Part shown: positions 10,130-56,148 of the stretch, piece after piece
How positions within the stretch are numbered: the stretch's first letter is position 1
Layout of the letters: the number at the start of each line of letters is the position of its first letter
From: Trypanosoma brucei
Taxonomy: Eukaryota
Direction: 5' to 3'
Assembly (NCBI GenBank): GCA_000002445.1
Contig: CP000068.1
Span: forward strand, 1,504,001-1,568,000
Length of the DNA: 64,000 bases
Notes under the pieces: generated by a model
Database searches by the model: none
The model's input: only the letters and a program-made list of their open reading frames with translations
What the model was told of the DNA's origin: nothing
Translations under genes and position numbers: made by a program

Positions 10130-11240
10130 TCAACAGTTGTATTCGTACAGAAAGGTTTTTCGGGGCTGCGTAGTCGGCTTAGTGGTGAGTGGTGTTGGCG
10201 GTCTGTTGATAGTCATGTTCAACCACGCGCACTCCTCCTCTGTAACGTGGTGAAAAACAATAACGTTAGGATTTTTTTCTACAAATTTGTCGAGCGGCCT
10301 TTTTACATGCATCACATAATGACAATCTTGCATATCCACTGTCAACAAACCATCAATTTTCATTTTATGCCTTAATACCTCCCCCACCATAATATTCTCG
10401 TTCAATACGGCATATTCAATATATTTCTCAAAGTTTAGAAAACTCACTCTGCCGGATAAAAGTTTGGAAATTTCCGAGAAGCCAGCTATTTCTTTTACAA
10501 CATCCCTTGAAATTGTATTTGCATACCCAACAACATACCACGTCAGTTTTCCAATATACTCGCCAAATTTACCCAACGCTCTTCCCATATTCAATTTCTC
10601 TCTTGGAAAAACCTCCAGATATTTTATATGCAGCGCCACCCTCATAAAAATATTATCATCTGCCTTCATAATATAAGGATTAGTTGGATTAAATATTTTA
10701 ACTGCGAATTTGAACCACAGATATGTTTTTCTACTCATCGTGAGTTCTGCTTCCCATCCCCAATTGCCCGCATCTCCAACTTTTTAATTTGTTGTTAGAT
10801 TCACATCGCAAACAGGTAAAATAATAATATCCTTATTTAACTCTGCCTCTTCTTCAGCGATTACTCTGAGCTCGCAATTGTTATTTGTATGAGGTAAAAG
10901 GGTATATACTACAGACAACTTCCCAGTAAAATTATTTACCTTCCTTGCCACTTTATGGAGACTCCAACAAGCTTCTTTCTGCAAGTTTCTCCTTATAAAT
11001 CTTTCATCATTATCTATTGAGGGTATTCCAGCTATAACCAAATAATCTTCAGTTTTCCAAATCCCCCTTACATCCTTAGAAACAAATTTCATATACTCAT
11101 CCTCAACAATTTCTAGTGAAATAGATTCACCATCACTAGACAAGCTGTATAGTGATCCACACAAACTGATGCCCATAACAATAAAAGATAAATAACCTAC
11201 TGTTGCATAAATACATATTTTATACCTTATAACTTACCAT
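10130..11240 (-). pseudogene. beta-1,3-glycosyltransferase-like (GT31/GT67-type) pseudogene, copy 1; a single in-frame TAA at 10784-10786 plus an N-terminal frameshift
   Basis: ORFs 10784..11176 and 10130..10738 are in the same frame, separated only by TAA where copy 2 has AAA. The joined protein carries motifs resembling beta3GT family signatures: a hydrophobic stretch then DNDERFIRRNLQKEACW (compare ERRxxIRxTW), and YIMKADDNIFMRV (DxD motif, compare YVMKTDDDVF). Family assignment is from motif memory, not a database search. Confidence 0.45.
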
Positions 11241-12407
11241 TATCATACTAATGAAAACTTCGAACATCGTATGAAATCATAGAAGATATTAATATAATAT
11301 GTGAGCTTCATCATGACCTGAAATTGTTTGCGTCAACTTTCCAGTTTTAATTGTAATATATTTTGCTATTTGTCTACTTTTATTGCATATATCGTTTATG
11401 ATTGTTGTGTTATTCTAATGCAGCCCAGCTCCAGCTGCATGAATGCATCATAAGCAAAGATGTAACTCTAACTTTTCACCAGGAGTAATAACCTTGATTT
11501 CTTTTCACGTTATCATGCTTTATATTAGGCCGTTTTATCTTATTGCTCAAACTGTTTGACCCTCAAATAACTCTTTTGTTCTGTATTTTTTCGCTGCGCT
11601 TCGCAAGTATCGGGTCAGTGACCACTCTCTATATGAACTATTTGCTCCTTGAGAGGTCTTAGTGTGTGGAAAGTATACCAGTATGGAATTGGAGGAGTAT
11701 CGGCATTGATTCTATTCACTCCAGAGAGGTTTCACATCGGTTCATGTGCGTACTATTTCAAGTAGTTTCCGTGTTTTTCATCTTTTTTTTCCACAGTAAT
11801 ATATTAGTTGTCCTAGTTTTAAGATCTTTTTCTTGCATATTGTTTTATTTTTTCGCACAGATGTTGACCATATTTAATACATCTGATAAAAAAACGACTT
11901 CGACATCACTTCTCATTTAACCAATTTATTACTGCTTTTTTTCTTCAAAGATAAACAATAAGATTCTCCATAAGATTAAAAACCACAATAAGTTCCATTT
12001 TCGCAGTAGAAAGAATTAGAGTTTACTGCGAAATACGTGGAATTATCTCCTCTCGTATCATTTTCTTTTTTACCATGCGTTTTTATATCCAGTTGCTACA
12101 CTATATTTTCTTTGCTTCTTTTTCGTGTTATGTACCTGTTTCTGTGCCTGAAATGGTAATTCCATTTGGTTCGCACACTGTACTTTGTCTTTCCCTCATA
12201 TGCTCCTCCATCATCTCCTTCGCATACGTTGATGATTCCCATTGTTGTGTTTGTGTTAGAAACTTAGTATATTCCATATTTCTCTCTGTGTTACCTCTAG
12301 AGACGCATTTAACACTTTTATCTTACCTGTTTGCTACTATTAAGCTTTTTCCATTGTGACAATTGTCTCTATGTTGTCCCTCAATTGATTCTTTACCACT
12401 TGTCTCA

Positions 12408-12480
12408 TTATAATATTCGTATACACACTCACAACACTCTCCTATCATTATTATTATCATCATCATCAATATTTACTATT
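12408..12480 (-). repeat. 70-bp repeat unit
   Basis: tataatattcgtatacacactcacaacactctcctatcattattattatcatcatcatca. Confidence 0.85.
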
Positions 12481-21475: not shown

Positions 21476-21760
<285 letters not shown>

Positions 21761-22084
21761 TGCAGTTACAACCGTAACTTTATATCTACAAAAAAATGGG
21801 AAATAAAAATAAATTAATATATTACTCATTTTAATATACAATCACCCCACTGGTGTACACACATGCCTCTGTCATACCAAAGTTTTACAAGTGAAGTTTT
21901 TCAAAATTTTCAATGAATTGCACAACTTGCAAAGGGTTGACAAAAAGTGTTATAATATATCATATTTAAAAAACATTTAAATTTTTTTTCAAAATAGCAA
22001 TTTTTATAAATTTTTATAAGTCTCATAAACTTGAGAAAAAGCTTTTACAAATGATTCGTAAAACTTTTATGCTAGAAGAAAAAT

Positions 22085-23430: not shown

Positions 23431-23508
23431 TAAAAGTGTTAAAATATATCAGAAAGTTTTTCAAGGAGCAAATTTTTAGCAAATTTCTTTTAAAAAGAGG
23501 GGAGGGAT

Positions 23509-39176: not shown

Positions 39177-40329
39177 TGGGTGTTGTTTAATTGGAAACTT
39201 GTTCCACAGGAGCCGCTATAGCTGTCAAAAAATTATTTATTTCTTTCTAGAAAAATTTTAGTACGATCTGCCTTTGCCACAGTTTGCTTGCATGTCGACA
39301 TATGGTGTTGTTTAGTGGACGGTTAAAAATAGATATGGGAGTTCGTTATCGGTTGGTTTTATAATTTTGGTTATTTCCATGCTTGAGAAATAGATATGCT
39401 CTGCTCTTATCCTCTTTTGTTTACCTCTTAGTTTGCAGCCGGTATCGCTTTCGGTCCCCAGTTCGAGGCGGCTGTGTCTTTGAAGCCGTGCCAGTGCTTC
39501 ACAATCCTTCGGTTTCGCTCACTTTTTAGTGATTCTGCAGCGTCTAGACCACAGCCAAAGTTGCTTTGCCGTTAGTTCCACGTGTTACTACGGCTACGTT
39601 ATATACAGCATTACTTAACCCTTGTCTTCTGTAAAACTTGCTTATGTTTTTTTTTGAAACCAGCAGTTTTTAACTTAGTTACACCGCATTTTTACAATAG
39701 ATTACATACATTCAGGTGCGATCATACAAGTGTATTGGCTTGCTCGGCGGCGTGAAAACGTTTTCTTTGCAACCTCTCACCAGCTGTGAAGCTTTTTACA
39801 CCAGGTCATGCTCCTAAGATTCTAATGTATAGTCATTTACATTATTCCACACCACCTTTAACTTTCGTCAAAGTCCCCTCACTATATGATCACGCTCTCA
39901 TGTTCGTGGAAAAACACACTTTTTTACCACGAATCAGAATCGAATTCTGAACTTACTACTTAGCATCAGAATCTATCATCATATTAAAAAATAGAGTAGC
40001 AACAATCTCCAACAGTACACCTACCTGTTTTTGTTTTAAATTTAGGCCATCACCATTTTGGACTTCCGCTGTGCACTGTTCCACATCCCGTCGTTTCACT
40101 ATGTATTTTCTTTTCATTCCTTTCTATCTTTCGTTACTTTTTCTGCGGGTAACATAGCAACTTCATTTGCCTTGTACACTAGATTCAGTCTCTCCCTCTA
40201 TCTGTCTTAATTCTTCATTCATAATATTTTCGCCCCCACAATTTTATAATCATCCACCCTCATTCACTCACTTACTCACATTCCAATCTTGCTACTTTTC
40301 AAGTTCATCTTTTTGTTTCCGCATTCAGG

Positions 40330-40410
40330 TTTTAACAATATCCTCATACTAATATTTGTATATGCACAGCCACACCACTTTCCTATCACCATTATTGTTA
40401 CAACGCTAAC
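40330..40410 (-). repeat. 70-bp repeat unit
   Basis: aatatttgtatatgcacagccacaccactttcctatcaccattattgtt. Confidence 0.75.
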
Positions 40411-40595
40411 TAATATTCATCAAATAAATAAAATAAACAAAATAAACAAAATTAGAACATCACTCATTTTTCATACCTTATCTCTCTGTTACTTTACATC
40501 CATCGGCCACCTTCATACGAAGGTTTAAATAATAGCATATTTTCATCGAAAAGTGTGAAAATATAACAGAGTCGCAAAAATATAGGTAAAAATTT

Positions 40596-42197
40596 TAAAA
40601 CAGTAAGGCCGTAAAAACAGCGGTCATCAGAGCCAATTACTTATTGACTAGAAAACTTCCATTTCGGCATTTCTCTGTATCCTTGTCATCCTCACCATCT
40701 TTGTCCTTTCTGAAACCACAAACGGGGGTTTGGCCTGCTGTGTTTTCAGCTTCGCATTTGGCTTTGTCAGTGCCGTGTTTGGTGCACCTGTCTGAAGCAG
40801 TTTTTCTCATCTTTCCCTCCTGTTTCTTGAGTTGCTTTTTCTGCTTCTTTTTTGCTCTCTTCACTCAATGTGCACCTTTTCTTTGGTTCTTTTGCTTCGG
40901 CGTCCCATTTGCAGGATGGTTTGCACTCTGTGTTTTTGTTTATCCTATTGCATTTTTCTTCGGCTTCTTCTTGGTTTTGTTTATTGTTTTCTGCTGCTAC
41001 TGCTGCACCTGGCGCTTTTTGGGATTGCTGCTGTATAGCCATTGCATTCAGCTGCAGGAGGTTTGTTAGGCTTTCATTGAGGCTGGTTAATTGAATCTCT
41101 GCCTGCAAAGTAGTGCGTTGCTCATCCTTTAGTGCCTGTTGCTTTTGAGCTGCTTTATCAAGAGCGCTTAGCCATGTCGGCTCCTGTATCGTGTTTGCCG
41201 CACTTACAAACGCTACACATGGACCTGTGCCTCCCGCGTCAGCGCCGTTGCAGTTGCCCGCTGCCCCTGCTGAGCCGACGTATCCTATGTATCCTACGGC
41301 GCCGCCAGTCCCTTTCGGTTCGTATAGCAGCGCCCTAATGCTGCTGCCGGCCTGTGCTATGTCCGTTTGCTGGTTAGCTTTATCGTGGTTGCCTTCGCTG
41401 CTGCAGTGTTCCGTTATTTGTGTCCACGCTGCTAGTGGTTTGCCTTGAGCCCCGAAATCCTGCTCTGTAGCTTGGGTTTTGTAGCGTGCCGCGGCGTTGT
41501 TGCTGGTACTGTCCGAGGCGCATAGACATGTCATGGTTTCTGCTAGTGAATTTTTGCTTGATGAGCCGCTTTTGCTGTTGGTGCCGCAGTGCGCTTCCCT
41601 GGTCGCCCCTGTGCCGGTTAGCTTGAGGTTGACTTTGTTTCCGCCGGGCCCGTATATTGCTTCCTCTAAGGCCGACTTGATTGCGGCGGCAGCGTCGGCT
41701 TCTTCTAAATAGTCTTTGGCTTGGTCCGCTAGAGTTTTCATTAGTTCGACGGTTTTGTTTATTTGCATGTGCAGTGGGCTCGCCGGCTGCGCCGCGATCT
41801 TGAGTTTCTGTTTTTCTTCTGGAGCTAAATTTTTTAGGTAGTTGGCTGCCTCTTGATACTGTGCCTTTGAGCTTCCCTTGCACTTTTCAGGAATCTCAGA
41901 GTCTCCCGTTGCCGCTTCTCCTGATGTGGTTGTTTTGTCTGCCATTTTTGCAATTGCGGAGAGCTCGCTTAGAATTAAAGCTATGTGTTGTGTTCTAAGA
42001 GCCGCATCCTTCGCTGCCGCAGACGGCTTGTTCTTACTTTGGAGCTTTGTGGCAGCCAGCACCACGTTGCATAGCAGTCCAAATGTTTGTCTGTTTTCAC
42101 CTTTGGTCGCGGTTCCCGCTTCAGTGGCTGCCGCGTACGTTATAAGCAGCAATGCTACCGCCACTACCGCTTTAGTTGGCCTTTGGTCCAATCGCAT
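40596..42197 (-). pseudogene. VSG pseudogene (A-type; N-terminal ORF of 476 aa intact; frameshift in the C-terminal domain plus a TAA inside the GPI signal). Paralogue of the VSG at 50606..52147
   Basis: ORF 40767..42197 reads MRLDQRPTKAVVAVALLLITYAAATEAGTATKGENRQTFGLLCNVVLAA… and ends …KKRCTLSEESKKEAEKATQETGGKDEKNCFRQVHQTRH*. The C-terminal domain continues in another frame (ORF 40637..40864: …RCTKHGTDKAKCEAENTAGQTPVCGFRKDKDGEDDKDTEKCRNGSFLVNK*LALMTAVFTALLF*). Confidence 0.85.
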
Positions 42198-42360
42198 CTC
42201 AGTTTGTGTCTAGTGCGTTTCTTTCAGCCTGGATCCGTAGGTAAAAGTGTGAGAAAGATGACGGTTGTTGGTTTTTCCGGCATGTTTTTGAAGTACTTCG
42301 CCTTTAAAAGCTTAGGGTGAGCCAGCTGTTCTGGTGCTCGTTATTTTTGACAAAATAACT

Positions 42361-43458
42361 TCACCATGGACGTTTTGGGACGTCACTTCGACTTAATAAA
42401 TCTGGCGGCCCATTGGAATGGCGGCTCGGGTGAAGCCTTTGCTGCGGTTTCATTGTAATACTGTCGCAAACAATACGGTTGCCATTCACTTCCATGGATC
42501 GCATTAAAATTCTTTTCACATGCATTACATAATGACAATCTTGCATATCCACCGTTAATAACCCCTCAATTTTAAATTTATTCTTTATAACTTCCACGAC
42601 CATAATATCTTCATTGAGTGCTCTAAAATCAATATATGTTTCGACATTTCTGAATTTAATTTCTGATTTTACTAATTTTATCAAAAGCTCATAATCAACA
42701 ATTTTCTTAACTACATCCCTTGATAGTGTGGACGCATAACCTATTGTGTGCCATGTAATTTCGTCACTAAATTCTTTAGGATAACCAACCGCTCTTGCCA
42801 CATTCAATTTCTCCATTGGCAATATTTCAAGGCACTGTAACAACAATGGCACCCTCATAAAAATATTATCATCTGCTTTCATTATATAAGGGTTTGTTGG
42901 CTTGAATAATTACACTGCAAATTTAAACTACAGATACGTGTTTCTACTCATCGTGAGTTCTGCTTCCCATCCCCAATTACACCCCTCTCCAACTTTTTTA
43001 TCTGCTGTAGGATTTACATCGCAAACTGGTAAAATAATAATATCCTGCTTTAACTCCGCCTCTTCTTCAGCGATTACTCTGAGCTCGCAATTGTTATTTG
43101 TATGAGGTGAAAGGGTATATACTACAGACAACTTCCCAGTAAAATTATTTACCTTCCTTGCCGCTTCGGGATAACTCCAACACGTTTCCCTCTGAAGGTT
43201 GCGCCTTCTGAATCTCCCATCATTATCTATGGAAGGTATTCCAGCTACAACCAAATAATCGTCGGCTTTCCAAATCATCCTTACATCTTTCGAAACAAAT
43301 TTAATACACTCATCCTCAACAACTTCTAGTGAAATAGTGTCACACACGTCAAATAAGCTGTATAGTGACGTTCCTAAATTAACAGAAATAACAATTAAAA
43401 AAAGTAAACTATCATTAACCAAATAGTTTGCAAATACTTTATAAGATGCTATTCCCAT
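42361..43458 (-). pseudogene. beta-1,3-glycosyltransferase-like (GT31/GT67-type) pseudogene, copy 2; two in-frame stops (TAG 42928-42930, TAA 42910-42912)
   Basis: ORF 42928..43458 has an N-terminal hydrophobic type-II-like anchor (LLFLIVISVNLGTSLYSL), then …YLVVAGIPSIDNDGRFRRRNLQRETCW…. ORF 42361..42882 reads MKADDNIFMRV…LTVDMQDCHYVMHVKR…. It is collinear with copy 1 (10130..11240). Confidence 0.45.
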
Positions 43459-44117
43459 ATTATTAGAAAACTATTAATATTTGTAAAATCAAAAACGATA
43501 TTTAGAAAATAAGTAAATGCTCTTCACCAAAGTGTTTACATAAGCAATTCCAAGGTATTGTCATGATGTAGCTGTTAAAAAGTCTATGTTAATATTCTGG
43601 AATTTTTATATAACCTCTCCTCTATATTTAGTTTTAGTAGTTATCTAGAGCCACATATAGTGCTTCTAAACAATATAAATCCTTCTGTTCTCTAGAATTA
43701 TTCACATTTTCCTCCAATGTATTTTTGTTTAATTACAGTAGTTACCTGCATCTATGTGTTCAGAAACGCTAATAATTTTACTGTTTATTTGTAGTAACTA
43801 CGACTAACATCCATTTTCGTGACTCTCGCATCACTATAACTTTTGAAACTTATGTAGTTGCCGTCTTGGGCAAAATAATGACACAGTATGGGCTGCACAC
43901 TTCATCTTCTCTCTTACTTATTGTACCCTCTATCATCTCAATGTGCATAATGGTGTACACCGTTACATTTGTGCTCGAATTTACGCCTCTACAATACTCG
44001 TTTCCGTCTGCCTCCTTGACTCAGCTGCTCTTCACATTATTTACTTGGTCTTGTCGCGCCCTTGACATTGTTTCGACTGTTGCTATTGCGGTAAACCATT
44101 TAGTATCTACAAACACT

Positions 44118-44215
44118 AACATTACAATAATATCAGTATATACACACTCACAACACTCACCTATCATCATCATCATTATTATTATTATTATCATGGTAAT
44201 AACATCTTAAACTAT
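44118..44215 (-). repeat. 70-bp repeat unit with a short TTA run
   Basis: atcagtatatacacactcacaacactcacctatcatcatcatcattattattattattatcatgg. Confidence 0.85.
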
Positions 44216-44470
44216 CTTCACTATTTTTATTTGGATTGTAAACCTAAATTACTTCTAATATTCATAAAATAAAGAAAGTAAACTAAATTATAATATCACT
44301 CATTTTTTATACCTTACTCCAAATTGTTTTATACCAATAGGCCACTATCATAAATATTTCATATGTTTGATATTTTTTAAATATTCACAATTTTCAATTT
44401 TTTGCAAAGTTTTTATTAAAAAGTGTTAAAATATATCAAATTTAAAAAATTATTTTGAAAAATAATTTTT

Positions 44471-46041
44471 TCATAAAATTAAGCAAAAATCCTTAGAATA
44501 TAAGAATGCTAAAATGCAACCACACTCACAAGGTAGCAGACGCCAGCGGAAATTTTTTATTTGCGAGGAAACTGTAATCTTTTCAAGTTGAGTCTTACCA
44601 TTTACAACTATCTTCACATTCTTTCTCTCCTTTCCCTGGACATTTATCCTTTTTCTTTCCATTTTTCTCCTGCTTCTTGGCTTGCTTTTTCTAGTCTTTC
44701 CTTCAGTTCCATTTTCGAGATGCACTTTTTTTCAGCTGGTTTGTTGTCGTGAAAATGGCAATGTTCAGTAGCATTACATGTCTTTGGGTCATTGTCTGTG
44801 ATTTTATTGCAAGCTTCTTCTGAATTGCTTGACTGTTTGTTATCTTTGTTAGCTTCTACGTCATCTTTTAACTTGATTATTTCGTTGTTTTTGGCTATTA
44901 TTGAATTAAAAAGCAGTTTTAAAAGTTGCTCAACGCTCTGTATTTCAGAGAGCGAAGTCTCGCCGTTTTCTTTGTCAGAAAATTCTTTGTTTGGAATTTG
45001 TGTTTCTTTAATATCTTTCCATACCTTGAGGTCGGTTGGCTTGTCGCTATCTTTGTAGATCTCTTCTAGCTTCTCGCTTGTTGGGCCGGCGTCGCTGCTT
45101 GTGTCGTATTTTTTTGTTTTCTTCAGTAGCTGGTGGTGGGCTGCTGCCTTTGCTGCTGCCAATTCCTGCAGACATTTAATGGTGAACTTTGTATGCTCTT
45201 TTCCCGCCGCGATTTTATTCTCTGCGGCATATATGAGCAGGTTGCCAAACTCCGCATAAGTGGTTCCGGCTGTAATTTTTTTTCATGTTTTTGCAGGCTG
45301 CGCAATGTGTATCATCGCGGCGCCTGCTGTTGCCTGGCTGAGGTAGCCGGTGTCATATGTTACTGGCGCAGCTAGCGTTTGTGCGCCCACCATGCTGGTG
45401 CCGGTGTGTTGAGTTAGGGCGTAGTTCTGGACAGTTCCAGTCGTTGCTGCATCGCCTGAGGCAGTGGAGAGCTCATCGAACAGAGACGAAGGACTGGTTA
45501 TAGCTTTGTTGGCCGTCGCTTTAGCGTCAAGCTGAGGGCCTACACCGCATTTTTTTCAAGGCTTGCCTTTTTTGCACTGCATTGCTGTTCCTGATTCTTC
45601 TAGGCACCCGTGAGTTTCGCATGTAGCGTAGGCCCCTGCAGCTATTTCTGCGAATTCAGCAATCCAGACCTGTAGGTAACTGCCGGCTGCCTGTGCATTC
45701 AGTGCTACGTCTATTGCCGTTTGCAGCTGTGTGGCTGTTATTGCCAGAAGCTCACGAAGCGATTACAGCAGCGGCCGGAGATTTGTGGCTGCTCCGGGCG
45801 GCTGTCTAGCAAAATATACCATTATTTTCAGTTTGTCTTTTAGCCACGAATCTGCTGTTGCTATGCTCGTTTTTAGTTTGGCAGCCCTCGCCGGAGCTGC
45901 CGTCGCCAACGCTTCCGCTACGCCACACAGTGGCTGCCAGACCGTGTGTTTAACGGCGTCGCCTGCACTTGCGGATGCAGCATCTGCTAGATATATTATG
46001 AGCAATAGCCTCGCTATGTCGTGCATTTGTGTAATGGGCAT
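44471..46041 (-). pseudogene. VSG pseudogene (frameshifts; N-terminus in ORF 45763..46041, C-terminal domain in ORF 44644..45162, tail in 44471..44725)
   Basis: N-terminus reads MPITQMHDIARLLLIIYLADAASASAGDAVKHTVWQPLCGVAEAL. C-terminal domain reads …EEACNKITDNDPKTCNATEHCHFHDNKPAEKKCISKMELKERLEKASQEAGE. Tail reads …ILAFLYSKDFCLIL*. A perfect 16-mer is at 44423..44438. Confidence 0.8.
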
Positions 46042-47221
46042 AGTTGCACGGCTTCTCTTTCTTAGATTTTCTTTCTTGCTTGGGGGATGATGTTGGCAAC
46101 TGACGTATGATATTTGTAGATTTTTTGTCCGGGCCTGGGTTAAGTCGGAATCATGGCATAAAATGGTTGTTGAGGCGTTTAGTTATCTTCTTACGGTGGT
46201 CTTGGCTACGTCTGATCTTAATCTTGCAGTTAGCCGCACCACATCGTTTACTTTAGGTTTTTACTCTCTTTGAGTGCATATCGTCTCGCTGGTTTGAGTT
46301 AGACTTTTGTTGCACTTCTTTAATATTGTTCGTCTTTGTTGAGTAGAACCAACTGTCAACAGCTGACGGCTTTTCTTTTATATCCAAACACTAATTTAAA
46401 CACATTAATAAAAATCTACAACACCTTGATTCCTATCGGTATATCAAATATCAACGTATTCTCCAACATTATAGCTTCTAATTGTTCCAAACTGTCGACA
46501 AACTTTACATATCTGAAATTTCAGTCTTTAGGGTTATTATTAATTTTTGTTTTTCTACAGTTTTATCCGTACTAACTGGTGCTGGAATAACAAAGTAACA
46601 AGAAGCTTTTCAGGGTCAGAATTCCTTTGAAGCTCCTGTTTTTCGTCATTCAGCTCTGTCATCTTCCGGCGTTTACGTTTAAGACAAGGCAAGTTGTTGC
46701 CAGAAAGCGTCTTCTTCACTGCTTTTCTTTTGTTAATGTGTGTTTTCGGTCTAAGGCATATGACCACTCTTACATACCTTAATCATTTCTTATATTTCTT
46801 AGCGTCTAGCGTGTATACCGATATGGAATTGAAGGGATATAACCATTGATCCTCTCCACTTTATAGAGATAGCTCATTGATTCATATACGAGGTTTCTTA
46901 TCCATTTAGTGTCTCCTTCACCTTGAACTTTAGTTAGCATTATCTCCTTGTTCTATCACTGTGTACAACGCAGTTGCTACATTTGTTCGATGTATCGTGC
47001 TGTGTGTCTCAATTATCGCATCCTCAAAATTATATCATATAATAATGTCTTGTCACTTTCTTCTCATGACAATGCGTACAATCAGTTTCATCACTTCATT
47101 TCATTCTACAATGATACCCATTTTCATTCTAATCCACCATTTCTACCTTATTTAATCACCCCCATCGCACGCTTTCCATTGTATTAACTAATTTTCTTTC
47201 AACCATCCACTTACTATTCAT

Positions 47222-47300
47222 CATTGTTTTTATTGATAATATTAGTATTTACACACACTCACAACGCTCTCTTATCATTATTATTAGTATTTATCTTTAA
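47222..47300 (-). repeat. 70-bp repeat unit
   Basis: gataatattagtatttacacacactcacaacgctctcttatcattattattag. Confidence 0.8.
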
Positions 47301-47486
47301 CTAATATCCATCAAATTAACAAAATTAAAAAAATTAGAATATCACTTACTTTACATTCATATACCACTATCACACACATTTAAAAAAAACATGAAAAAGT
47401 GTTATAATATGCCATACTTTTAGAGAAATTTTAAGCTACATAAAATGGATCTAAAATTTTTACCAATAATTCTTAAAGTTGTTAAG

Positions 47487-48946
47487 CTAGAGGAAAAACT
47501 GCAAGCAAAAAGGGACTTTAATTACAGCTGAAAGAACCGTTCCCTCTTTAACTTTGCACTCTTTCTTTTCTGCGTTACAATCGCATTTTGTTTTGTCGCA
47601 ATCTTTCTCTTCGACGGCTGTGAAAACCTCGGCTTTTTTATCCCCGTCTTTCTTATCGTCTTTTTGTCTGGTTTTTCGCTTTGTTTGAGCTTTTCCTCTG
47701 AGCCTGATAACTGAGCTTTTTCCGCTGCTTCTTTGCCGAGATAATATGCTAATACGGTTACACCATCAGCTGTCCCTGCCAATTCAAAGGGAGTCTTTTT
47801 TATTGGCATGTTCCTTATTTTTATGTCAATCCTTGTCTTGTCAATAGTGTCTGTGACTCTTTGCTTGAATATTTCTGGCTTTGCGCCGAAAAACTTGTGA
47901 ACAAGCGCTTTCCTTTCGATTGCATCTTTTGGAAGTGGTGTGTCTGGTGATCTTATATCAGTTAGGGTTTCTGCTAACCGGTTTTCAGCTTCCAGTGTCG
48001 ACAACGGGCGGTTGTGTGGAGGTGTATATGCAGGTTTCGGGGTACGCCTTAGCTGGCAGATAGCTGCTGCTAGGGCTGTTGGTTTGTACTGGTGCGGCTT
48101 ACTGTCGTCGCTGATTTTTGGGCACGCCGTCTGGTCCCCTGTGCTCTTTAGTGCTATCTTCGTTTTTTTGTACGAGTGCGCTTTGTGTTCGACTTTGGGT
48201 AGCAGTGCGTTGGCTTGATTGGCGCCGTCAAAGTCTTGTGATGCCGTGATGCAGGCGCCGGTCGTGTGTGCGGATCCTACCATGGCTCCGTTTACTTCTC
48301 CTTTACTTAGGGACGTCGCTTCTAGGACGTGTCTGCTTGCGGCCGTTGCCGCCAGCGTTATGTGCTCGGTGGTCTGCCATTTGACGTTAGAGCGCTTTAC
48401 GTCGTCTTCTTCGCTGTCTAGGCTGCAATTTTGCGCGGTGTACGAGATTTTGACAGCCGCCTTGCAGCCGTGTATGGTGTTAGTTGAGCCAATTGTGAGT
48501 GGGCTGCCAAGTTTGCTTCCGCTCTCTAAAGTTATTGTTTTGGTTGCTGTATCGTGGTCAGTTAGGTGCACCGCTTCCTGTATTTTTATTATCTCCCGCG
48601 TCGCCGCTACTTGTTCGTTGTGAGCTAGTGTTGCAGAGATTAGCTGTGATACATCTGCCTCGGCGATTGTCGCTAGCGCTTTGAAGGCCACTGCTGTTAC
48701 TGCGTCGTCTGACGAAGCTGCTGCTATTATATATGCCACCGCAGCTTTAACAGCTGTAGTTGCAGCTGATCCGTCGCTCAAATAAGTCGTTTTGATTTTG
48801 TCGTTGATTAATTTAAGATATCTGGCCGTCTGGCCGGGTGTGGATACAGCCTGGCTGGCGGCGTCATCGTCGCCCATGGTGCCCGTTAACTGAGCTGATT
48901 CCACTAGTATTATTAGTGGCTGTCTCCCTGCGTTGGTGTAAAGCAT
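47487..48946 (-). pseudogene. VSG pseudogene (474-aa ORF covering the N-terminal domain; C-terminal domain frameshifted)
   Basis: ORF 47522..48946 is VSG-like through the N-terminal domain (…GSTNTIHGCKAAVKISYTAQNCSLDSEEDD…TGACITASQDFDGANQ…) but ends in non-VSG text (…KRKIATKQNAIVTQKRKSAKLKRERFFQL). The genuine C-terminal domain (…EEKDCDKTKCDCNAEKKECKVKEGTVLSAVIKVPFCLQFFL*) is in the adjacent frame. A 16-mer variant is at about 47398. Confidence 0.75.
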
Positions 48947-50214
48947 CTGCTTGCGTGTGTGAGTGATGCTGCTGGTGAGGTGTCTGTGGAATTGGCTGGT
49001 TGGTTCTGTCGTTGCGAAAGTGGCGGAACAAAAGATATATATTCTTGGTGTGCTGCTGAGATGCGTGCCTACGATGCTAGTACATAGGCTGAGCCGTAGA
49101 ATTTACACTTTTAATTCCATGTTAATTTGTTTGACATCTATATCTATTTAATCTATTGGTTCGTAAATCCGATTGTTCAACTCTTAAAAGTACTTTTCAC
49201 ACTACTACACCTGAAAAATCAAAACTCAAGGTTTCTAATCTTCTCTATTTCCAGACAATTCTGCGTTACATTCCGAATTAATAACCAAGTTCCGCCATTG
49301 CTTCTTAAAAAACGATTACTTTTCGCTCATATTTTGATCATGTGGCGTTAAGTTGTTCCGATGCCGTTAAATGCTGGGTCATTTTTGTAGCTAACGTACC
49401 TTGTGTGACGCTTTTATCTTCACTAATACGCGCCACTAACTCACCATATGCAACCGCTTTTATACGGATTAGTCTCTGTTTAGAAGCTCTTAATGGTTTA
49501 CCTGTATACAAATATGGAATTAGAGGAATTGTGTCTCTAATTCACTTTACTTCATAGAGATACGCTATTTTCTCCTATATGAGCTATTTAAAGACGTTTC
49601 CAAGTTTTTATTCTTATTTTTCTGTCAGCAAAAATCTATTATTGGTACTGGTTTTTAAATTTTCATCCTAAAAGTATTATATTATTTCCAGAAAATATGT
49701 GTCATTATTACTATACATGATGAGACTACTTTGACATTATTTCACATCTACCTAACACCTTTCCCAACCTTCTTAATCTTATTCTTTACATCTGAAGATT
49801 AGGGTACGACATCAGATTAAAAAACGAAGTCAATACCATCTCTACTTTTTCACCAATACATTTTTTGTGAGCTATAAGGCACAGTCTCCTGTACTGTTCT
49901 CTTCTGTGCTCTGCTGCCAGAGCTACCGTTGGTTTACTCAGTTTTTTAATTCCGTCCCTTTGGCTTACTAAAACTGTCACTTCATGTAACGTACGTACTC
50001 CCTTTATCCTCTACGTTGAATTCTGTATCTCCTTCATTTCACTTCTAACGTATTCTTGTGTATGATGCCTCTATCCGTCATTTATATGTATGAAACCGCG
50101 CATACCCAAACTCCTTCTTTGTATCTTTCTCATGGCCACTACCCTACTCATTTCCCTTGCACCTCTCCCATTTTTTGAAGAGCTTCGATTTTCCTCTTTC
50201 ATTCGGTTGCCACA

Positions 50215-50395
<181 letters not shown>

Positions 50396-50605
50396 TAAGA
50401 CTAACTGATTTCGGTCAAATAAACAAGATAAATGACATTAGAATAGTACTCGGTCTTTTTACCTTATCACCATATTAATTGGCATGAATGGTCCTCTTCC
50501 GCACTAAAATTTAGTATTTTTTAAAATACACATTTTTCAAAGGTTCGACAAAAGTGTTATAATATATCAAATTTTAACCAGAAAAATTTTAAAGTACTAG
50601 AAAAA

Positions 50606-52147
50606 TTAAAATAGTAATGCCACAAAGGCAACCGACATTAGAGTAAATTTTTTATTAAAAAAAATACTGGAATCATTGCAAGCAATATTTTTCCATTTAC
50701 AGCTTTTGTCATCCTCACATTTTGCCTTATCAGTTCCGTGTCTTGCATATCCAGATGTATCTGTTCCTTCTCCTGCTTTTTCTACTGCTTTTTTGGCTTC
50801 CTCGCTCAATGTGCACTTTTTGTTGTGTTCCTTTGCTTCGCCGCTCCACGTGCATGGCGGTTTGCAATCTGTGTCTTTTTCTTTTTTATTGCATCCTTTT
50901 TCGGCTTCTTCTTGTTTTGTTGAGTCACCTGAGGCTGTTTCTGCTGCTGCTGCTGGACTTGCTGTTGGCCGCTTAAGCGCTTCCATGCAGTTTAGTGCTA
51001 GGAGGGTCGTTAGGGAATTATTGAGTGTGTGAATTTGTGCCTGTAGTCGAGTTATGGCGGCCTGTTTCCCGTGTAGTGCTGTTTGTTGTTCCGCTGCCGT
51101 CGCCAGTTTGCCGAGCCATTCTGGCGGTGCTATATCGGCTGGCCCGGTCCGAAAGCTTGCGCAGGCACCACTGTTTCCGCTGTTCTCACCGTCGCAGTTG
51201 CCTGTGCCCTGACCAGCGATATGGCCTATGATGCCGGTTTTGCCTGTCGTACCTTTGGCTGCGTTTAGTTCGGCCTGCAGTGCAGCTGTAATTTCAGTTA
51301 GTCTTTGCCTGTGTTGCGTTGCTGCGGTCCCGACCGTCTTCCGGCAGTCTTGCAGTATTGTCGACCAGTCCGTTATTTCTTCGTTTTGTTCCCCGAAGTT
51401 TTGGTTGCCTGTTGGGGTGCTGTAGCACGCCGTGTTTGTTCTCGGTCCTGCGGCGGTTGACGCGCACAGGCAAGCTATTGTTTCCGCGATTGATCTTTTG
51501 GCCGATGCGCCTGGGCCGGTGTCGCCCTTGCCGCAGTGGGTCTCCCTGTCCCCGCCGGCGCCTGGCAACTTCGGCTTGGTTGTTTTTGTCGTTACACCGT
51601 AGATGGCTTAAATCAAATGTTTTTTGACTGGGTCGTTGGTGTCGCCGTTTGAAAATATTTTGTGTGTTGTAGCAATCTTTATGAGTTTTTGCAGCGTGTT
51701 GTTTATCTTTTCCTTGAATCCGCGGTTTTCTGTGGTGGCCTGTAGAAGCTTTTGTTTTTCTGCTTCTGGTAAGCCTTTGAAATATGTTGCAGCTGCCGTG
51801 CACCGAGAAAGTTTTTCCTTTTTACATGCAGTTGAAATAGCGTCATTGTCGTCTGGTTTTGGCTTGCTGTATGTAATAAGCGACGCAACTTTGCTTATAG
51901 CTGTTGGTTGTTCCATGATTAATGACATGAATTGTGAATTTTGTGCTGCCTCCTTGGAAGCCTGTGCTGGTGCCGGTGCTGCTGAGCCTTCTTCCTCCGC
52001 TAACACCACTGCACATAACAAACTAAATGGGCCTCGGTTTTCTCCTTTGCTGGGTCCAGCTGCTGATACGTGTGTTGCTATTGACACGAACACCGCACAT
52101 ATGGCTACTAACAACATTGCTTGGGGTTTTTTCTGACGCTTAAACAT
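50606..52147 (-). pseudogene. VSG, near-intact: a single in-frame TAA (51605-51607) is the only break in a complete 500-codon VSG. Paralogue of 40596..42197
   Basis: ORF 51608..52147 reads MFKRQKKPQAMLLVAICAVFVSIATHVSAAGPSKGENRGPFSLLCAVVLA… and ends …DPVKKHLI*. The same frame continues AIYGVTTKTTKPKLPGAGGDRETHCGK… (ORF 50606..51568) to …KKCTLSEEAKKAVEKAGEGTDTSGYARHGTDKAKCEDDKSCKWKNIACNDSSIFFNKKFTLMSVAFVALLF*. The paralogue has LEEAIYG where this has LI*AIYG, so the stop is a GAA to TAA change. Confidence 0.85.
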
Positions 52148-52789
52148 TGCTGTTCGCTGAAGTACTAATTTTCGCTTGGTTAGGGACTTGTTGGTTGTAT
52201 AACAGTTGAAGATACATCGATGCCGGGTTGTATTCTGGTTAATTTCCGCAGAAATGCTGCAAATTTGAAACCGTGTAATCTCGCTATGGTTGAAGTGTTA
52301 CTTATTATGCCGCTTATCAGCCGTTATTGCCCGTTTTAAAGGTAATACATCTGACTATGCTCATTGTTTTTTCTTTTCGTTGATGGTAAGGAACATAATG
52401 GTACTGCCATAAAAAGTGACAGCTTCAGCAATTCATTTATAAGTCGCTCCATTCGTATGATAACAGGTGGCAGCTTCAGCTTGTAGTGAGGTGCATGTTC
52501 GGTGTTTGCCACTGCGCCTTCAACGTGGAAATCTCTGCTTTTGCTTATTTTTGCTGCGAACTTTCCGTGATTTTGGGAATGGCGCAGCGAAACATTATGC
52601 TTGTGTGAAGCCATGACCGCTTAAGTGTCACCTTATGTGTCGGAAAGATATACGGTGATTGATAAGGTTTAAAAGTCTTTAAATTTTCAACCGCTGTGTG
52701 AAAACATCTCTTAACAATATATTGACATAAACTCAGACGTAAAAAATACCCTTTCATTTATACAGCTGACACGTTTCCTCACATTCCCC

Positions 52790-53346
52790 ACATTCAATTT
52801 CTCCATTGGCAATATTTCAAGGCACTGTAACAACAATGGCACCCTCATAAAAATATTATCATCTGCTTTCATTATATAAGGGTTTGTTGGCTTGAATAAT
52901 TACACTGCAAATTTAAACTACAGATACGTGTTTCTACTCATCGTGAGTTCTGCTTCCCATCCCCAATTACACCCCTCTCCAACTTTTTTATCTGCTGTAG
53001 GATTTACATCGCAAACTGGTAAAATAATAATATCCTGCTTTAACTCCGCCTCTTCTTCAGCGATTACTCTGAGCTCGCAATTGTTATTTGTATGAGGTGA
53101 AAGGGTATATACTACAGACAACTTCCCAGTAAAATTATTTACCTTCCTTGCCGCTTCGGGATAACTCCAACACGTTTCCCTCTGAAGGTTGCGCCTTCTG
53201 AATCTCCCATCATTATCTATGGAAGGTATTCCAGCTACAACCAAATAATCGTCGGCTTTCCAAATCATCCTTACATCTTTCGAAACAAATTTAATACACT
53301 CATCCTCAACACCTTCTAGTGAAATAGTACCACCTTCACCAAACAA
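52790..53346 (-). pseudogene. GT31/GT67-like glycosyltransferase pseudogene fragment, copy 3 (middle ~560 bp only; carries the same TAG and TAA as copy 2)
   Basis: 52790-53340 is base-for-base identical to 42800-43350. ORFs 52892..53095 (+) and 42902..43105 (+) encode identical peptides at a 9,990-bp offset, and ORF 52918..53346 matches 42928..43458 apart from its 5' end. Confidence 0.5.
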
Positions 53347-54699
53347 GCTTTATAGCGAAACACTAACGCTAGTTCCCATAATAATAAAGACTAAACTAAC
53401 CGGTGTATCATAAATACTTCATATATACTTCATACCTTCCTATTATCGTACTAATGAGAAGCTTGTAATTCATTTAAAAAATAATAGACAACATCGATAA
53501 AAGAAGTGTTAGTTCCATAAATCTATTTAGTGAAGGAATCCCTGTTTACATATATAAGTCATCATATGATATTGTTATGATATAAGTGTTAAAATGTGTA
53601 TTTTCCTGTCTTCAGCATTTATTTGAGAAACATATACTGTATTTGTTTTTGCTTTAAAAGTGAGACTCAGCCAAACCTAATGCAACAAAGCCGACGAACT
53701 ACACTTTTCCTTACATTATTCACATATCCCCTATAAGCAATGTCATAAAAATTTCGAATCTTAGTTGCGGTAGGTAATAGAGAATTACTAAAAATTTTGC
53801 TTCTTTCCTGTGCTAAAGACCCTTACCATTCTCTTTCATTATGAGACTTCAATAACCATAAATTTATGAACTACTGTCCCTTTTTTTCGATCATCATCTA
53901 TAGAAGCAGAAGATATCTTTTTTTTTGCGCAAAATATGGAACACGATCTATGCTGATGCATTTTTCCATCTGAGGTACATTTCCACGCCTGCCATTCTTC
54001 ACTTTGTATTTTATGTGTTTAATTTTACTCTATTGCTGCTACCAGTACCGATGACATAACAATCTGATTTTACCATTCACTTTATTTTGATTTTGCATGA
54101 TAGCCATATCCTTCTTTTTGTGCATGATAATTCCCATAATTATATCGATTTTAAGGTGCGTATACTCCATTTCCATCTACCCTTTTTTTGCTTTTTCTTT
54201 CATAATATTCCTCTTACTCTCCTACTTACTATCGCATTTACTATACCCATCATTCTCAACCCACACTTGTCATCGTTTCAAATGCTTCTGTTTCGGCTGT
54301 TCATTCTGCTATTACCGCTACTATAATTATCATACATATACGAACCAACAAAATGTTCTTATCATTAGGCTTGTCCCTTCCATCACCATTACTATTTTAA
54401 ACCTAACTAGTATAAAAAATATAAATCAAATTAATATTTTTTCATAATTTCACTCATTTTTCACGTCATATCACCTTTCCACTTTACGTCCATAGGCCCA
54501 TTTCATGTACATTTCACTAAAATATAATATTTTTCAGATTTTTTAAAACTTTCAAAAGTTTCACGTTTCTCAAAAGCTTTAAAAATGTGTTAACATATAT
54601 TATATTTCATAAAATTCTCTCAAAATAAAAATATTCATAAAAATCATAAAATTGAGCAAAAATATTTAGATTTTTATAATCCAAATATAAAACAAAAAT

Positions 54700-56148
54700 C
54701 ACAAAATCAACAGACATAAGAGAAAATTTCTTATTGACAAGAAAACTGGAATCTTTACAAGCATTATTTTTCCATTTGCATCCATCTTTTCAGTGTTCTT
54801 GTTTTGTCTTTTCAGAGCACTTTGAAGTTGCCCCTGCTGCTCCTACTCCTGTTTGTGTGGCCTGTTCATTTACCTTTGTCGTAATAGACTTGCAGTGTTT
54901 TTCATCTGTTTCGTCCACTTACCATTTTCATTTTTCATTGGTTGTGCAGTCAGCTGCTTTTTCTATTGCTTCGCATTGTTTTTTGTTGGTTTCTGTTGTG
55001 TTTTCATTCGGTGGTTTGGCGTCTGCTCTAGTTGTGGTTGGCTTGGCTACGCTAGAACTCCTGTAAATTTCCCACGCTGTGGAGTTTATTACTTTCAATT
55101 GCGTTAGCAGGCTGTCGATCCGCCCATGTGTCACCAGTCGTTTGTCTGGTTAGCCCACGGCCCTTTCCAGATCCTGCATTCAGGTAATGCCGTTGTCGCT
55201 GTCACCAAGTTAGTGCTTGTAATTTACGGACATGCCATTGCTGCCATTGCCGTCGCATCCTTCGCTGTTTGTGGGTTTACTGAGTACAGCACAGGCTGGG
55301 AAGGCGCTTATGCTGCTAGTGTGCTTTCCCATTAAGTTTTTGACGCTGCCGAGAGCGGCTGCTATGCTGCCAGTTGTTAGCGCTGTTTCTCTTGTTTTCA
55401 GCCGGCATTTTGTTATCATCGTCTGGAGTTTCGTTTCCTTGTCTCCTTTGTGGTCGCTGTGGCCTTTTGCTGTTGGCGTGGTCCCCTTCTCACACGCAGC
55501 GGTAGCGCTTCCTTCCACGCCGACTCATAGACAGTATAGAGCTGTTGTCAAGGGCTTGTCTACTGTTGCAGCACAGGCTGTTCCGCCGCAAGTTTCGTCC
55601 ACACTGGTTGCTACTGTGGATCCGTCAAATGCAGTTTTCTTCTCGCCGTGCAGCGCTTTCTTAATTTTATGCAGGGCTAAAGTTTTGGTGGTGCTATACG
55701 CTTCTACTTACTGCTCCAGTGCGTCTTTTACTGCTTTCGCTGCAGCGTGTACTTTGATTAGGTTTTTGTTTGCACGTTCACGGTAATTACTTTTTGGTAG
55801 CCTTAGGATTCTGGGCTTGCCTGTTGAGTGTTCTTTTTCGTGTACCTCTTCAAGTTTCTTTCGCCAGGCTTCCTACTCACTTTCTTTGCTGTTGCTGCCT
55901 TCTGGTGTCAGTGCGCCATCTTTGGTTGTGTAGTATGTGTCCGTTTCTGTAGAAATATTTGGGTTCTCGATTTCGTTTAAGGTGGTCTGTACTTGAGCAT
56001 CTGCAGTTATGGCTTCCAGTTGCTTCGCTGCATCTTCTAGGGACAAAACGTTGCATATTACCGCAAATTCATTGTCGTTATCGTTGGCTGTTGCTGATAC
56101 CTGGCTTATTACTGTATACAACAAAGCCCAAACTGTGAATAAAGTTTC
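54700..56148 (-). pseudogene. VSG pseudogene, fragmented (start METLFTVWALLYTVISQVSATA at about 56148)
   Basis: Minus ORFs 55873..56373 (N-terminus …NEFAVICNVLSLEDAAKQLEAITADAQVQTTLNEIENPN…), 55210..55518 (mid; …LTTGSIAAALGSVKNLMGKHTSSISAFPACAVL…) and 54928..55134 (C-terminal domain; …KKQCEAIEKAADCTTNEK) lie in different frames. A 16-mer variant is at about 54588. Confidence 0.75.

What the first reader, a model, noticed from the sequence alone, without database searches (positions are those of the whole stretch)
52780..53346. 560-bp block of 100% identity inside an otherwise diverged duplicated cassette about 10 kb apart; copy 3 is a mosaic
42800-43350 and 52790-53340 are identical base for base, including both nonsense codons (offset 9,990 bp). 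The surrounding cassettes (VSG 40596..42197 against VSG 50606..52147, plus the upstream and downstream flanks) are clearly homologous but substantially diverged. That pattern is the signature of a recent short-patch gene conversion superimposed on an old duplication. At its 5' end copy 3 switches to sequence resembling copy 1 (…ccataataataaagactaaactaaccggtgtatcataaatac… against copy 1 …ccataacaataaaagataaataacctactgttgcataaatac…), so copy 3 is itself a mosaic of two donors. This directly shows segmental conversion among non-VSG sequences inside the VSG archive.
Basis: seen in the sequence. Interest (0 to 1): 0.6.

Follow-up and report, generated by a model that had tools for sequence, protein, structure and literature searches.

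The report
Gene-conversion patch between two glycosyltransferase pseudogenes
Two decayed copies of a glycosyltransferase gene, each sitting upstream of a silent coat-protein (VSG) gene 10 kb apart in a Trypanosoma brucei subtelomere, share a 524-base stretch of perfect identity inside otherwise very diverged copies, which is an ordinary but clean example of a recent gene-conversion patch.

Summary
Exact identity spans 524 bp (42798-43321 = 52788-53311, offset 9,990). It is 541 bp with one mismatch and 571 bp at 98.1%, not 551-560 bp. It is the only long repeat above 90% identity in the window.

The window is a T. b. brucei TREU927 VSG array with all genes on the minus strand. [quoted passage not shown] Three copies exist: c1 10130-11302, c2 42361-43514 and c3 about 52631-53508. 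Each lies between a 70-bp repeat and a VSG.

Cassettes 2 and 3 are old paralogues:
- Their VSGs are mutual best partners at only 35% amino-acid identity.
- They share a specific upstream flank at about 58% identity.
- Copy 3 keeps a barely recognisable glycosyltransferase remnant beyond the block, colinear to within 1 bp.

A recent homogenising gene conversion into copy 3, from copy 2 or an unseen identical copy, is the best explanation. The "two donors" claim is not established, because copy 2 is simply the outlier in that segment. Read-level confirmation was not possible. The phenomenon is known, so interest is low to moderate.

The parts
52788..53311 (-). Identical block in copy 3, the inferred recipient. 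It is the conserved core of a GT67 glycosyltransferase pseudogene.
   Evidence: 524/524 identical to 42798-43321. It is 84.9% identical to copy 1 and 69-78% amino-acid identical to annotated T. brucei glycosyltransferases. It carries TAG 52920-52918, TAA 52902-52900 and a DDN motif at 52866-52855.
42798..43321 (-). Identical block in copy 2, the inferred donor or co-recipient.
   Evidence: It holds copy 2's only internal stop codons, 42930-42928 and 42912-42910.
53312..53358 (-). Transition zone at the upstream (minus-strand 5') edge of the tract.
   Evidence: There is one mismatch at 53312, then 16 matches, then 10 mismatches in 30 bp. Beyond it, c2-c3 identity is 54%.
42361..43514 (-). Copy 2: near full-length GT67 pseudogene. 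Homology to copy 1 runs 43514-42512. The reading frame of 366 codons runs from ATG 43458 to TGA 42361, with two internal stops.
   Evidence: Translation. [quoted passage not shown] Sub-threshold Pfam Galactosyl_T match at the DXD region. 75.6% identity over 1014 bp to copy 1.
52631..53508 (-). Copy 3: old, decayed GT67 pseudogene whose core has been overwritten.
   Evidence: tblastn with P0001/P0004/P0005. Homology to copy 1 extends to 53508. There are stops at 53421 and 53352 in the N-terminal part.
52631..52753 (-). Decayed 3' remnant of copy 3 beyond the block. It is colinear with copy 2 at offset 9,991, so a 1-bp indel shifts the frame.
   Evidence: Profile of the family's C-terminal half scores 12.8 bits against a best of 7.3 among 900 shuffled frames. 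Ungapped identity is 57/123 to copy 1, against 33.7 +/- 4.7 in shuffles, with 0 of 5000 shuffles reaching it. There is no DNA-level local alignment signal (z=1.1).
10130..11302 (-). Copy 1: third GT67 pseudogene, in an unrelated VSG cassette.
   Evidence: It has its own nonsense codon at 10786-10784 and does not share the two stops of copies 2 and 3.
53039..53152 (-). Nested 114-bp span where copy 1 (about 10836-10949) differs from copies 2/3 at only 2 sites. It is a candidate older conversion patch.
   Evidence: 79 differences in 524 bp overall. P=5e-5 for a span this long with <=2 differences under uniform placement.
53550..53877 (-). Flank upstream of the glycosyltransferase unit, shared only by cassettes 2 and 3 (partner 43536-43855).
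   Evidence: Local alignment z=15.2. Copy 1 and five other cassettes' upstream regions give z<=2.2. Identity is about 53-60%.
50606..52147 (-). VSG pseudogene of cassette 3 (B-type, frameshifted near 51568-51608).
   Evidence: Pfam VSG_B and Trypan_glycop_C. 35% identity over 456 aa to the VSG at 40767-42197.
40596..42197 (-). VSG of cassette 2 (open reading frame 40767-42197, 476 aa).
   Evidence: Pfam VSG_B E=6.6e-35. Reciprocal best partner of the cassette-3 VSG.
44120..44193 (-). 70-bp repeat unit bounding cassette 2 upstream.
   Evidence: A (TRR)n run followed by GAGTGTTGTGAGTGTGTATATAC. Part of repeat family D3.
54310..54395 (-). Degenerate 70-bp-repeat-like sequence bounding cassette 3 upstream.
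   Evidence: Read. The resemblance was judged by eye only.
50554..50569 (-). VSG 3'-UTR 16-mer of cassette 3. The cassette-2 equivalent is at 40553-40568.
   Evidence: Pattern scan for TGATATATTTTAACAC with <=2 mismatches gave 13 sites, all on the minus strand.

Best explanation
The window is a silent VSG array of Trypanosoma brucei brucei TREU927. Three VSG cassettes carry, between their 70-bp repeat and the VSG, a pseudogene of the GT67 glycosyltransferase family.

Cassettes 2 and 3 are ancient paralogues that have diverged almost to saturation. Recently a stretch of about 524-541 bp, the conserved core of the glycosyltransferase pseudogene, was copied non-reciprocally into the decayed copy 3. 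The template was copy 2, or an unseen copy identical to it.

The likely route is homologous-recombination repair of a DNA lesion (synthesis-dependent strand annealing or short-patch double-strand-break repair). The tract ends on both sides where similarity between the partners drops from the family's roughly 85% core level to roughly 50-60%. Its length was therefore probably set by the available homology.

Shown: the identity block, its sharp edges, homology of the flanks on both sides, paralogy of the cassettes, and pseudogene status. Inferred: that the cause is gene conversion, that copy 3 is the recipient, that copy 2 is the donor, and that homology limited the tract.
For: Identity and uniqueness:
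- 524/524 identity, or 541 bp with one mismatch.
- It is the only long repeat above 90% identity in the window.

The flanks are homologous but very diverged, so this is a patch and not an insertion:
- Upstream, c2-c3 identity is 54-60% for about 550 bp (z=27 and z=15).
- Downstream, a colinear protein-level remnant scores 12.8 bits against 7.3 for the best shuffle.
- That remnant is 46% identical at the nucleotide level against 27% expected, at offset 9,991.

Cassette paralogy:
- The two VSGs are mutual best hits at 35% amino-acid identity.

Selection on the protein is excluded:
- Two shared nonsense codons and a DDN in place of the catalytic DDD lie inside the block.

Copy 3 is the recipient:
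- The block is 69-78% identical to annotated family proteins, while copy 3's adjacent 3' remnant is 32-42% (53% over a 17-residue overlap with P0004).
- Copy 3's flanks carry 4 stops and a frameshift in about 82 codons.
- Same-subfamily comparisons show the two halves normally diverge equally (c1-P0001: 72% and 76%).

Homology-limited tract:
- c1-c2 identity is about 85% within the block limits and 60-64% outside.
- Copy 2 becomes P0002-like within a few codons after the block's downstream edge.

Context:
- The three intact VSGs are exact matches to TREU927 proteins XP_845140-2 on a 1.6-Mb contig.
- Glycosyltransferase genes and pseudogenes are known subtelomeric components (PMC2854126, PMC4288722).
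- T. brucei repairs breaks by homologous recombination, including ectopic and segmental conversion (PMC2377438, PMC12137147).
Against: - No reads or second assembly could be examined, so perfect identity rests on one reference sequence.
- The block is about the length of one Sanger read.
- The donor cannot be identified from 64 kb of a genome that holds many such pseudogenes.
- Copy 2's only stop codons lie inside the block, and copy 2 changes subfamily affinity at the block's edge. Copy 2 may therefore also be a recipient.
- The downstream remnant of copy 3 is supported only by a weak profile match over 41 residues, significant against shuffles.
- Tracts inferred between silent VSG pairs are much shorter, about 14-80 nt (PMC3472502).
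Confidence: 0.8

Rival explanations
1. Copies 2 and 3 were each converted, separately, by a third glycosyltransferase pseudogene elsewhere in the genome. The visible block is the overlap of the two tracts. This is still gene conversion, but copy 2 is not the donor.
For: - Copy 2's reading frame is open everywhere except for the two stops inside the block.
- The block in copy 2 is closer to P0001/c1 (75-78%) than to P0002 (69%). The next 75 residues are P0002-like, 73-77% against 47-50%.
- Only 64 kb of the genome is visible.
Against: - It needs two events with matching end points instead of one.
- Two stops falling in the block by chance has probability of about 0.23, so that pattern carries no weight.
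- The family core is conserved across subfamilies anyway (71-76% against 47-51%), so copy 2's affinity switch may be old.
Confidence: 0.15
2. Assembly or finishing artefact. A read or clone fragment from copy 2 was incorporated at copy 3, or consensus editing homogenised the two copies.
For: - The block is roughly the size of a Sanger read.
- No read data could be checked.
- Subtelomeric repeats are hard to assemble (PMC4288722).
Against: - The block sits in copy 3 exactly in register with the old homologous sequence on both sides (offsets 9,990 and 9,991). A misplaced read would not be expected to do this.
- The flanks are too diverged (41-57%) for an assembler to overlap a foreign read.
- The upstream edge is graded, with one isolated mismatch followed by 16 matches. 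That looks like a recombination or heteroduplex end, not a read boundary.
Confidence: 0.05
3. A recent duplication of the whole cassette, after which everything except the core was overwritten by other donors or diverged very fast.
For: VSG genes are exposed to frequent conversion and evolve rapidly (PMC2854126, PMC3472502).
Against: - The non-coding flank, the pseudogene's N- and C-terminal parts and the whole VSG would all have to be replaced while staying colinear within 1-50 bp.
- Adjacent neutral pseudogene sequence cannot go from 0% to 45-59% divergence by mutation alone.
Confidence: 0.02
4. The block is conserved because it is a functional element, such as an RNA gene or regulatory sequence.
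For: None beyond the identity itself.
Against: - No Rfam family reaches threshold in 40000-55000.
- Copy 1 differs at 15% of sites with a third-codon-position excess (22:15:42). This shows a protein-coding history, not a conserved non-coding element.
- The block carries nonsense codons.
Confidence: 0.01

Closest known systems
Segmental gene conversion among silent and expressed VSG genes of T. brucei (mosaic VSG formation; PMC12137147, PMC3708902, PMC3472502)
   Same: - Same organism and the same subtelomeric archive.
- The same kind of non-reciprocal copying of a gene segment between diverged paralogues.
- The outcome depends on available homology.
   Different: - The substrate here is a non-VSG passenger pseudogene, so no selection on antigen diversity is involved.
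- The event homogenises a very diverged pair rather than diversifying a similar pair.
- The tract of 524-541 bp is much longer than the roughly 14-80 nt inferred between silent VSG pairs (PMC3472502).
GT67 family of UDP-Gal/UDP-GlcNAc-dependent glycosyltransferases of T. brucei (TbGT3, 8, 10, 11, 15; PMC8477195)
   Same: - 64-78% amino-acid identity to annotated TREU927 members.
- The conserved segment around the DXD motif aligns.
- Length and layout match a type II glycosyltransferase.
   Different: - All three window copies are pseudogenes with nonsense codons, and copy 3 also has a frameshift.
- They carry DDN instead of DDD.
- They sit inside VSG cassettes rather than in core chromosome regions.
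Pseudogene-functional gene conversion patches in other gene families (for example human CYP21A2/CYP21A1P; from general knowledge)
   Same: A short tract carrying inactivating mutations is transferred between tandemly arranged paralogues in the same orientation a few to tens of kb apart.
   Different: Here both partners are already pseudogenes, so no phenotype is expected.

Membership tests
GT67 / beta3-glycosyltransferase-superfamily gene (as a pseudogene) | Significant sequence similarity to annotated T. brucei UDP-Gal/UDP-GlcNAc-dependent glycosyltransferases | tested here: met
   E=5e-128, 65% identity over 85% of the copy-2 conceptual protein. tblastn locates exactly three copies in the window.
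GT67 / beta3-glycosyltransferase-superfamily gene (as a pseudogene) | Pfam Galactosyl_T (PF01762) domain above the gathering score | tested here: inconclusive
   Copy 2 scores 16.8 bits against a cut-off of 23, matching only around the DXD region. Its closest homologues P0001, P0003 and P0004 carry PF01762.
GT67 / beta3-glycosyltransferase-superfamily gene (as a pseudogene) | Catalytic DXD (DDD) motif | tested here: not met
   All three copies read ADDN where P0001-P0005 read ADDD. This is consistent with inactive copies.
GT67 / beta3-glycosyltransferase-superfamily gene (as a pseudogene) | Uninterrupted reading frame (needed for a functional member) | tested here: not met
   Copy 2 has two internal stops. 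Copy 1 has one internal stop and no start codon in register. Copy 3 has four stops plus a frameshift. Hence pseudogenes.
Gene-conversion tract | A segment of much higher identity than the surrounding alignment of the same two paralogues | tested here: met
   100% over 524 bp, against 54% upstream and 41% downstream.
Gene-conversion tract | Flanks on both sides are homologous and colinear, so the tract is a patch and not an insertion | tested here: met
   Upstream z=27 and z=15. The downstream remnant is significant against shuffles, at offset 9,991. The downstream evidence is weak in absolute terms.
Gene-conversion tract | Non-reciprocal transfer with the donor unchanged, and donor and recipient identified | not testable with these tools
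   This needs the ancestral state or other strains. Copy 3 as recipient is inferred from the decay contrast.
Gene-conversion tract | The sequence is real at read level, not collapse or a consensus error | not testable with these tools
   No reads or alternative T. brucei assemblies were reachable. Exact look-ups returned nothing for T. brucei.
T. brucei array VSG cassette | 70-bp repeat upstream, VSG coding sequence, and conserved 16-mer in the 3' UTR, all on the same strand | tested here: met
   13 16-mers, all on the minus strand. VSG domains by Pfam. 70-bp repeat units at 44120-44193, 12400-12468 and 50224-50392. For cassette 3 the repeat is degenerate.
Retroelement insertion (ingi/RIME/SIDER) | Discrete element with a poly(A) tail or target-site duplication, unrelated to its flanks | tested here: not met
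   The block is colinear with glycosyltransferase coding sequence in all three copies. No A-run or duplicated flank is seen at the edges.

The most novel reading that the evidence does not exclude
The conserved roughly 0.5-kb core of the glycosyltransferase pseudogene, placed between the 70-bp repeat and the VSG in a subset of cassettes, may act as a recurrent recombination module. It would be an island of homology kept similar by repeated conversion. Nested patches of different ages are seen among the three copies. Such a module could serve as an alternative upstream pairing site for exchange between otherwise unrelated VSG cassettes.
Probability: 0.08. Interest if true: 0.5.

Novelty: new member of a known kind. 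Interest (0 to 1): 0.22.

Why it matters
The substrate is a dead passenger gene, so the patch records recombination in the silent VSG archive free of selection on antigen sequence.

It shows that homogenising tracts of about 0.5 kb occur between array cassettes 10 kb apart. These are much longer than the roughly 14-80 nt tracts inferred between silent VSG pairs. It also shows that tract ends coincide with the limits of pre-existing similarity.

A genome-wide survey of such passenger pseudogenes could give a neutral estimate of conversion rate, tract length and donor distance in trypanosome subtelomeres. As a single case it confirms what the field already expects.

Tried and rejected
- **Exact look-ups of window proteins and of the TREU927 homologues in the assembly index.** Nothing is on record for T. 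brucei, so no second assembly or other strain could be compared.
- **Marcello & Barry 2007, by DOI and by PMC id.** The paper is not held.
- **DNA-level local alignment of copy 3's downstream flank against copies 1 and 2.** There was no signal (z about 1). At first this suggested that copy 3 was truncated at 52788 and that the block was an insertion with one non-homologous junction. That reading was rejected after tblastn, a family profile and a codon-guided comparison found a colinear decayed remnant.
- **Microhomology at the downstream junction.** A GAATGTG motif occurs twice around 52788. It does not have the single-copy form expected of microhomology-mediated joining, so it was treated as chance.
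- **10-kb periodicity of the neighbouring cassettes.** The VSGs at 44423/54587 and 47522/58792 are not related, so there is no larger tandem duplication.
- **Known RNA families in 40000-55000.** None found.
- **Polarising donor against recipient by subfamily affinity.** This was informative for copy 3 as recipient and inconclusive for copy 2.

Full report
**1. Observation**

At offset 9,990 the window is identical base for base over 524 bp, 42798-43321 = 52788-53311.

Measured other ways, the block is 541 bp with a single mismatch at 43322/53312, or 571 bp at 98.1%. Ungapped identity at this offset falls to the random level immediately below 42798, and within about 50 bp above 43338.

A self-comparison of the whole 64 kb finds no other repeat above 90% identity longer than about 50 bp. 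The feature is therefore real, unique in the window and far beyond chance. The claimed length of 560 bp is slightly overstated.

**2. What the sequence is**

Thirteen copies of the VSG 3'-UTR 16-mer, all on the minus strand, identify a Trypanosoma brucei silent VSG array of about 14 cassettes. Pfam VSG_B, Trypan_glycop and Trypan_glycop_C domains in the large reading frames agree.

Three intact VSGs are exact matches to T. b. brucei TREU927 proteins XP_845140, XP_845141 and XP_845142, on a contig of 1,608,198 bp.

The block is not VSG sequence. [quoted passage not shown] The conceptual protein of copy 2 matches annotated TREU927 members at E=5e-128 with 64-66% identity. It gives a sub-threshold Pfam Galactosyl_T match around the DXD region. 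This is the GT67 family, whose pseudogenes are set aside in published gene counts (PMC8477195). Its members are a recognised subtelomeric component (PMC2854126) and vary between strains (PMC4288722).

**3. Anatomy**

tblastn finds exactly three copies:

| Copy | Coordinates | State |
|---|---|---|
| c1 | 10130-11302 | One internal TAA of its own |
| c2 | 42361-43514 | 366 codons from ATG 43458, interrupted only by TAG 42930-42928 and TAA 42912-42910 |
| c3 | about 52631-53508 | Decayed flanks; core identical to c2 |

All three copies read DDN where the annotated proteins read DDD.

Each copy lies between a 70-bp repeat and the start of a VSG. It is therefore part of the unit that would be copied during VSG activation.

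Pairwise identities:
- c1-c2: 75.6% over 1014 bp.
- c1-c3: 82.4% over 675 bp.
- c2-c3: 98.1% over 571 bp.

**4. Are cassettes 2 and 3 old paralogues?**

Yes, on three lines of evidence.

- Their VSGs are mutual best partners in the window, yet share only 35% amino-acid identity over 456 residues (232 bits, next best 106). Nucleotide identity is about 60%.
- Upstream of the limit of the glycosyltransferase unit (defined by where copy 1's homology stops), cassettes 2 and 3 still align: 43855-43536 with 53877-53550, about 53-60% identity, z=15. Copy 1 and the upstream regions of five other cassettes give z<=2.2.
- Offsets are nearly constant along the cassettes: 10,022 in the flank, 9,990 in the block and about 9,944 in the VSG.

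**5. The two edges**

*Upstream edge (minus-strand 5').* Identity decays through a short transition at 53312-53358 and then settles at 54%.

*Downstream edge.* DNA alignment finds nothing (z=1.1), which at first suggested a truncated copy. However:
- tblastn hits with P0001 and P0005 continue colinearly.
- A profile of the family's C-terminal half scores 12.8 bits on copy 3, against a best of 7.3 among 900 shuffled frames. The aligned sequence is ...FYVxVYVNILLRDV...RISFR....
- The codon-guided comparison gives 57/123 identities to copy 1, against 33.7 +/- 4.7 in shuffles.
- The remnant sits at offset 9,991, one base out of register, which explains the change of frame.

The old copy 3 therefore runs on beyond the block. 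The block is a patch within colinear homologues, not an insertion.

**6. Mechanism and direction**

Selection cannot explain perfect identity that includes two nonsense codons and a broken catalytic motif. Mutation cannot take adjacent neutral sequence from 0% to 45-59% divergence. A non-reciprocal transfer (gene conversion) is the economical explanation.

Copy 3 is the recipient, for these reasons:
- The block is 69-78% identical to annotated family proteins, while copy 3's own downstream remnant is 32-42% (53% over a 17-residue overlap with P0004).
- Within one subfamily the two halves normally diverge equally (c1-P0001: 72% and 76%).
- Copy 3's flanks hold four stops and a frameshift in about 82 codons. 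The block holds two stops in 175 codons.

The donor is copy 2, or an unseen copy identical to it. This cannot be settled from 64 kb.

Both tract ends coincide with the limits of the region in which copies 1 and 2 are about 85% identical, against 60-64% outside it. Copy 2 becomes P0002-like within a few codons of the downstream edge. I infer that the tract was limited by available homology.

This fits what is known of T. brucei repair:
- Homologous recombination, including ectopic templates, together with microhomology-mediated joining (PMC2377438).
- Segmental conversion whenever a homologous template exists (PMC12137147).

**7. The 'two donors' claim**

In the 126 bp just upstream of the block, copy 3 is 70.6% identical to copy 1 and 54% to copy 2 (c1-c2: 60%).

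Against the family's N-terminus (P0004), copy 1 is 64% identical, copy 3 50% and copy 2 39%. With three sequences, the distances fit a star tree with a long copy-2 branch as well as they fit a copy-1-like donor. Copy 1 itself, at 70%, is not the donor.

Copy 3 is a mosaic of old resident sequence plus one imported block. A second donor is possible but not shown.

**8. Further layers**

Within the block, copy 1 differs from copies 2/3 at 79 sites. Only 2 of these fall in a 114-bp span (53152-53039), P=5e-5. Copies 1 and 2 also share an 84% patch at 10299-10395 / 42512-42608, inside a stretch of about 55% identity.

The c1-c2 differences in the block are biased to third codon positions (22:15:42). 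Much of that divergence therefore predates inactivation. The family looks like a patchwork of exchanges of different ages. Conserved coding motifs could account for part of this.

**9. Artefact?**

Reads could not be examined. The block is about the length of a Sanger read, which is a caveat. Three features argue for a biological event:
- The block is in register with decayed homologous sequence on both sides, to within 1 bp.
- The flanks are too diverged to support a false overlap.
- The upstream edge is graded.

I put the artefact at about 5%.

**10. Comparison and novelty**

The event belongs to the well-described class of subtelomeric gene conversion in T. brucei. It differs from the usual cases in three ways:
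- It affects a non-VSG passenger pseudogene.
- It homogenises a highly diverged pair.
- It is far longer than the roughly 14-80 nt tracts inferred between silent VSG pairs (PMC3472502).

It is a new instance of a known kind. It is useful as a neutral marker of archive recombination, but not surprising.

Noticed in passing
window 53039-53152 (= 43049-43162) vs about 10836-10949: Copy 1 differs from copies 2/3 at only 2 of 114 positions here, against 79 of 524 across the block (P=5e-5). This may be an older, nested conversion patch. The shared derived residues are SVVYTL and RVIAEE.
   Followed up: partly
window 10652-10663, 42865-42876, 52855-52866: All three glycosyltransferase copies read DDN in place of the catalytic DDD found in the five annotated TREU927 homologues. 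The inactive form seems to have spread with VSG cassettes.
   Followed up: partly
window 42361-43458: Copy 2 is an otherwise open 366-codon frame whose only two stop codons lie inside the shared block. Its 75 residues after the block are P0002-like, while the block and the far C-terminus are P0001/c1-like. Copy 2 may itself be a recombinant or a co-recipient.
   Followed up: partly
window 10299-10395 vs 42512-42608: An isolated 98-bp patch of 83.7% identity between copies 1 and 2, near the 3' end of the glycosyltransferase frame (DCHYVMHVK region). It is surrounded by sequence of about 55% identity.
   Followed up: no
window 50261-50392 and 21497-21673: Very long pure (TAA)n runs (read on the minus strand) of 132 and 177 bp, attached to 70-bp repeat units. 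They are much longer than the 27-33 bp TRR runs at the other repeats in the window.
   Followed up: no
window 23509-24969: This intact VSG (XP_845141) falls in a 90% cluster with eight other deposited T. brucei VSG proteins of the same length (AGQ49969 and others, ABQ52447). It appears to be a repeatedly sequenced, probably expressed, variant.
   Followed up: no
window 21947-21962 and 23436-23451: Two VSG 3'-UTR 16-mers lie only 1.49 kb apart with no reading frame of 150 aa or more between them. This implies a short or heavily decayed VSG pseudogene in that cassette.
   Followed up: no
window 52148-52630: About 480 bp between copy 3's recognisable remnant and the VSG start has no similarity to anything else in the window and no Pfam match (tested: reading frame 52336-52614). 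By position it should hold the rest of the decayed glycosyltransferase 3' half.
   Followed up: partly
window 47522-48946: A 474-aa open reading frame in a VSG-cassette position gives no Pfam VSG hit at E<=0.01 and has almost no tblastx similarity to the other VSGs in the window.
   Followed up: no
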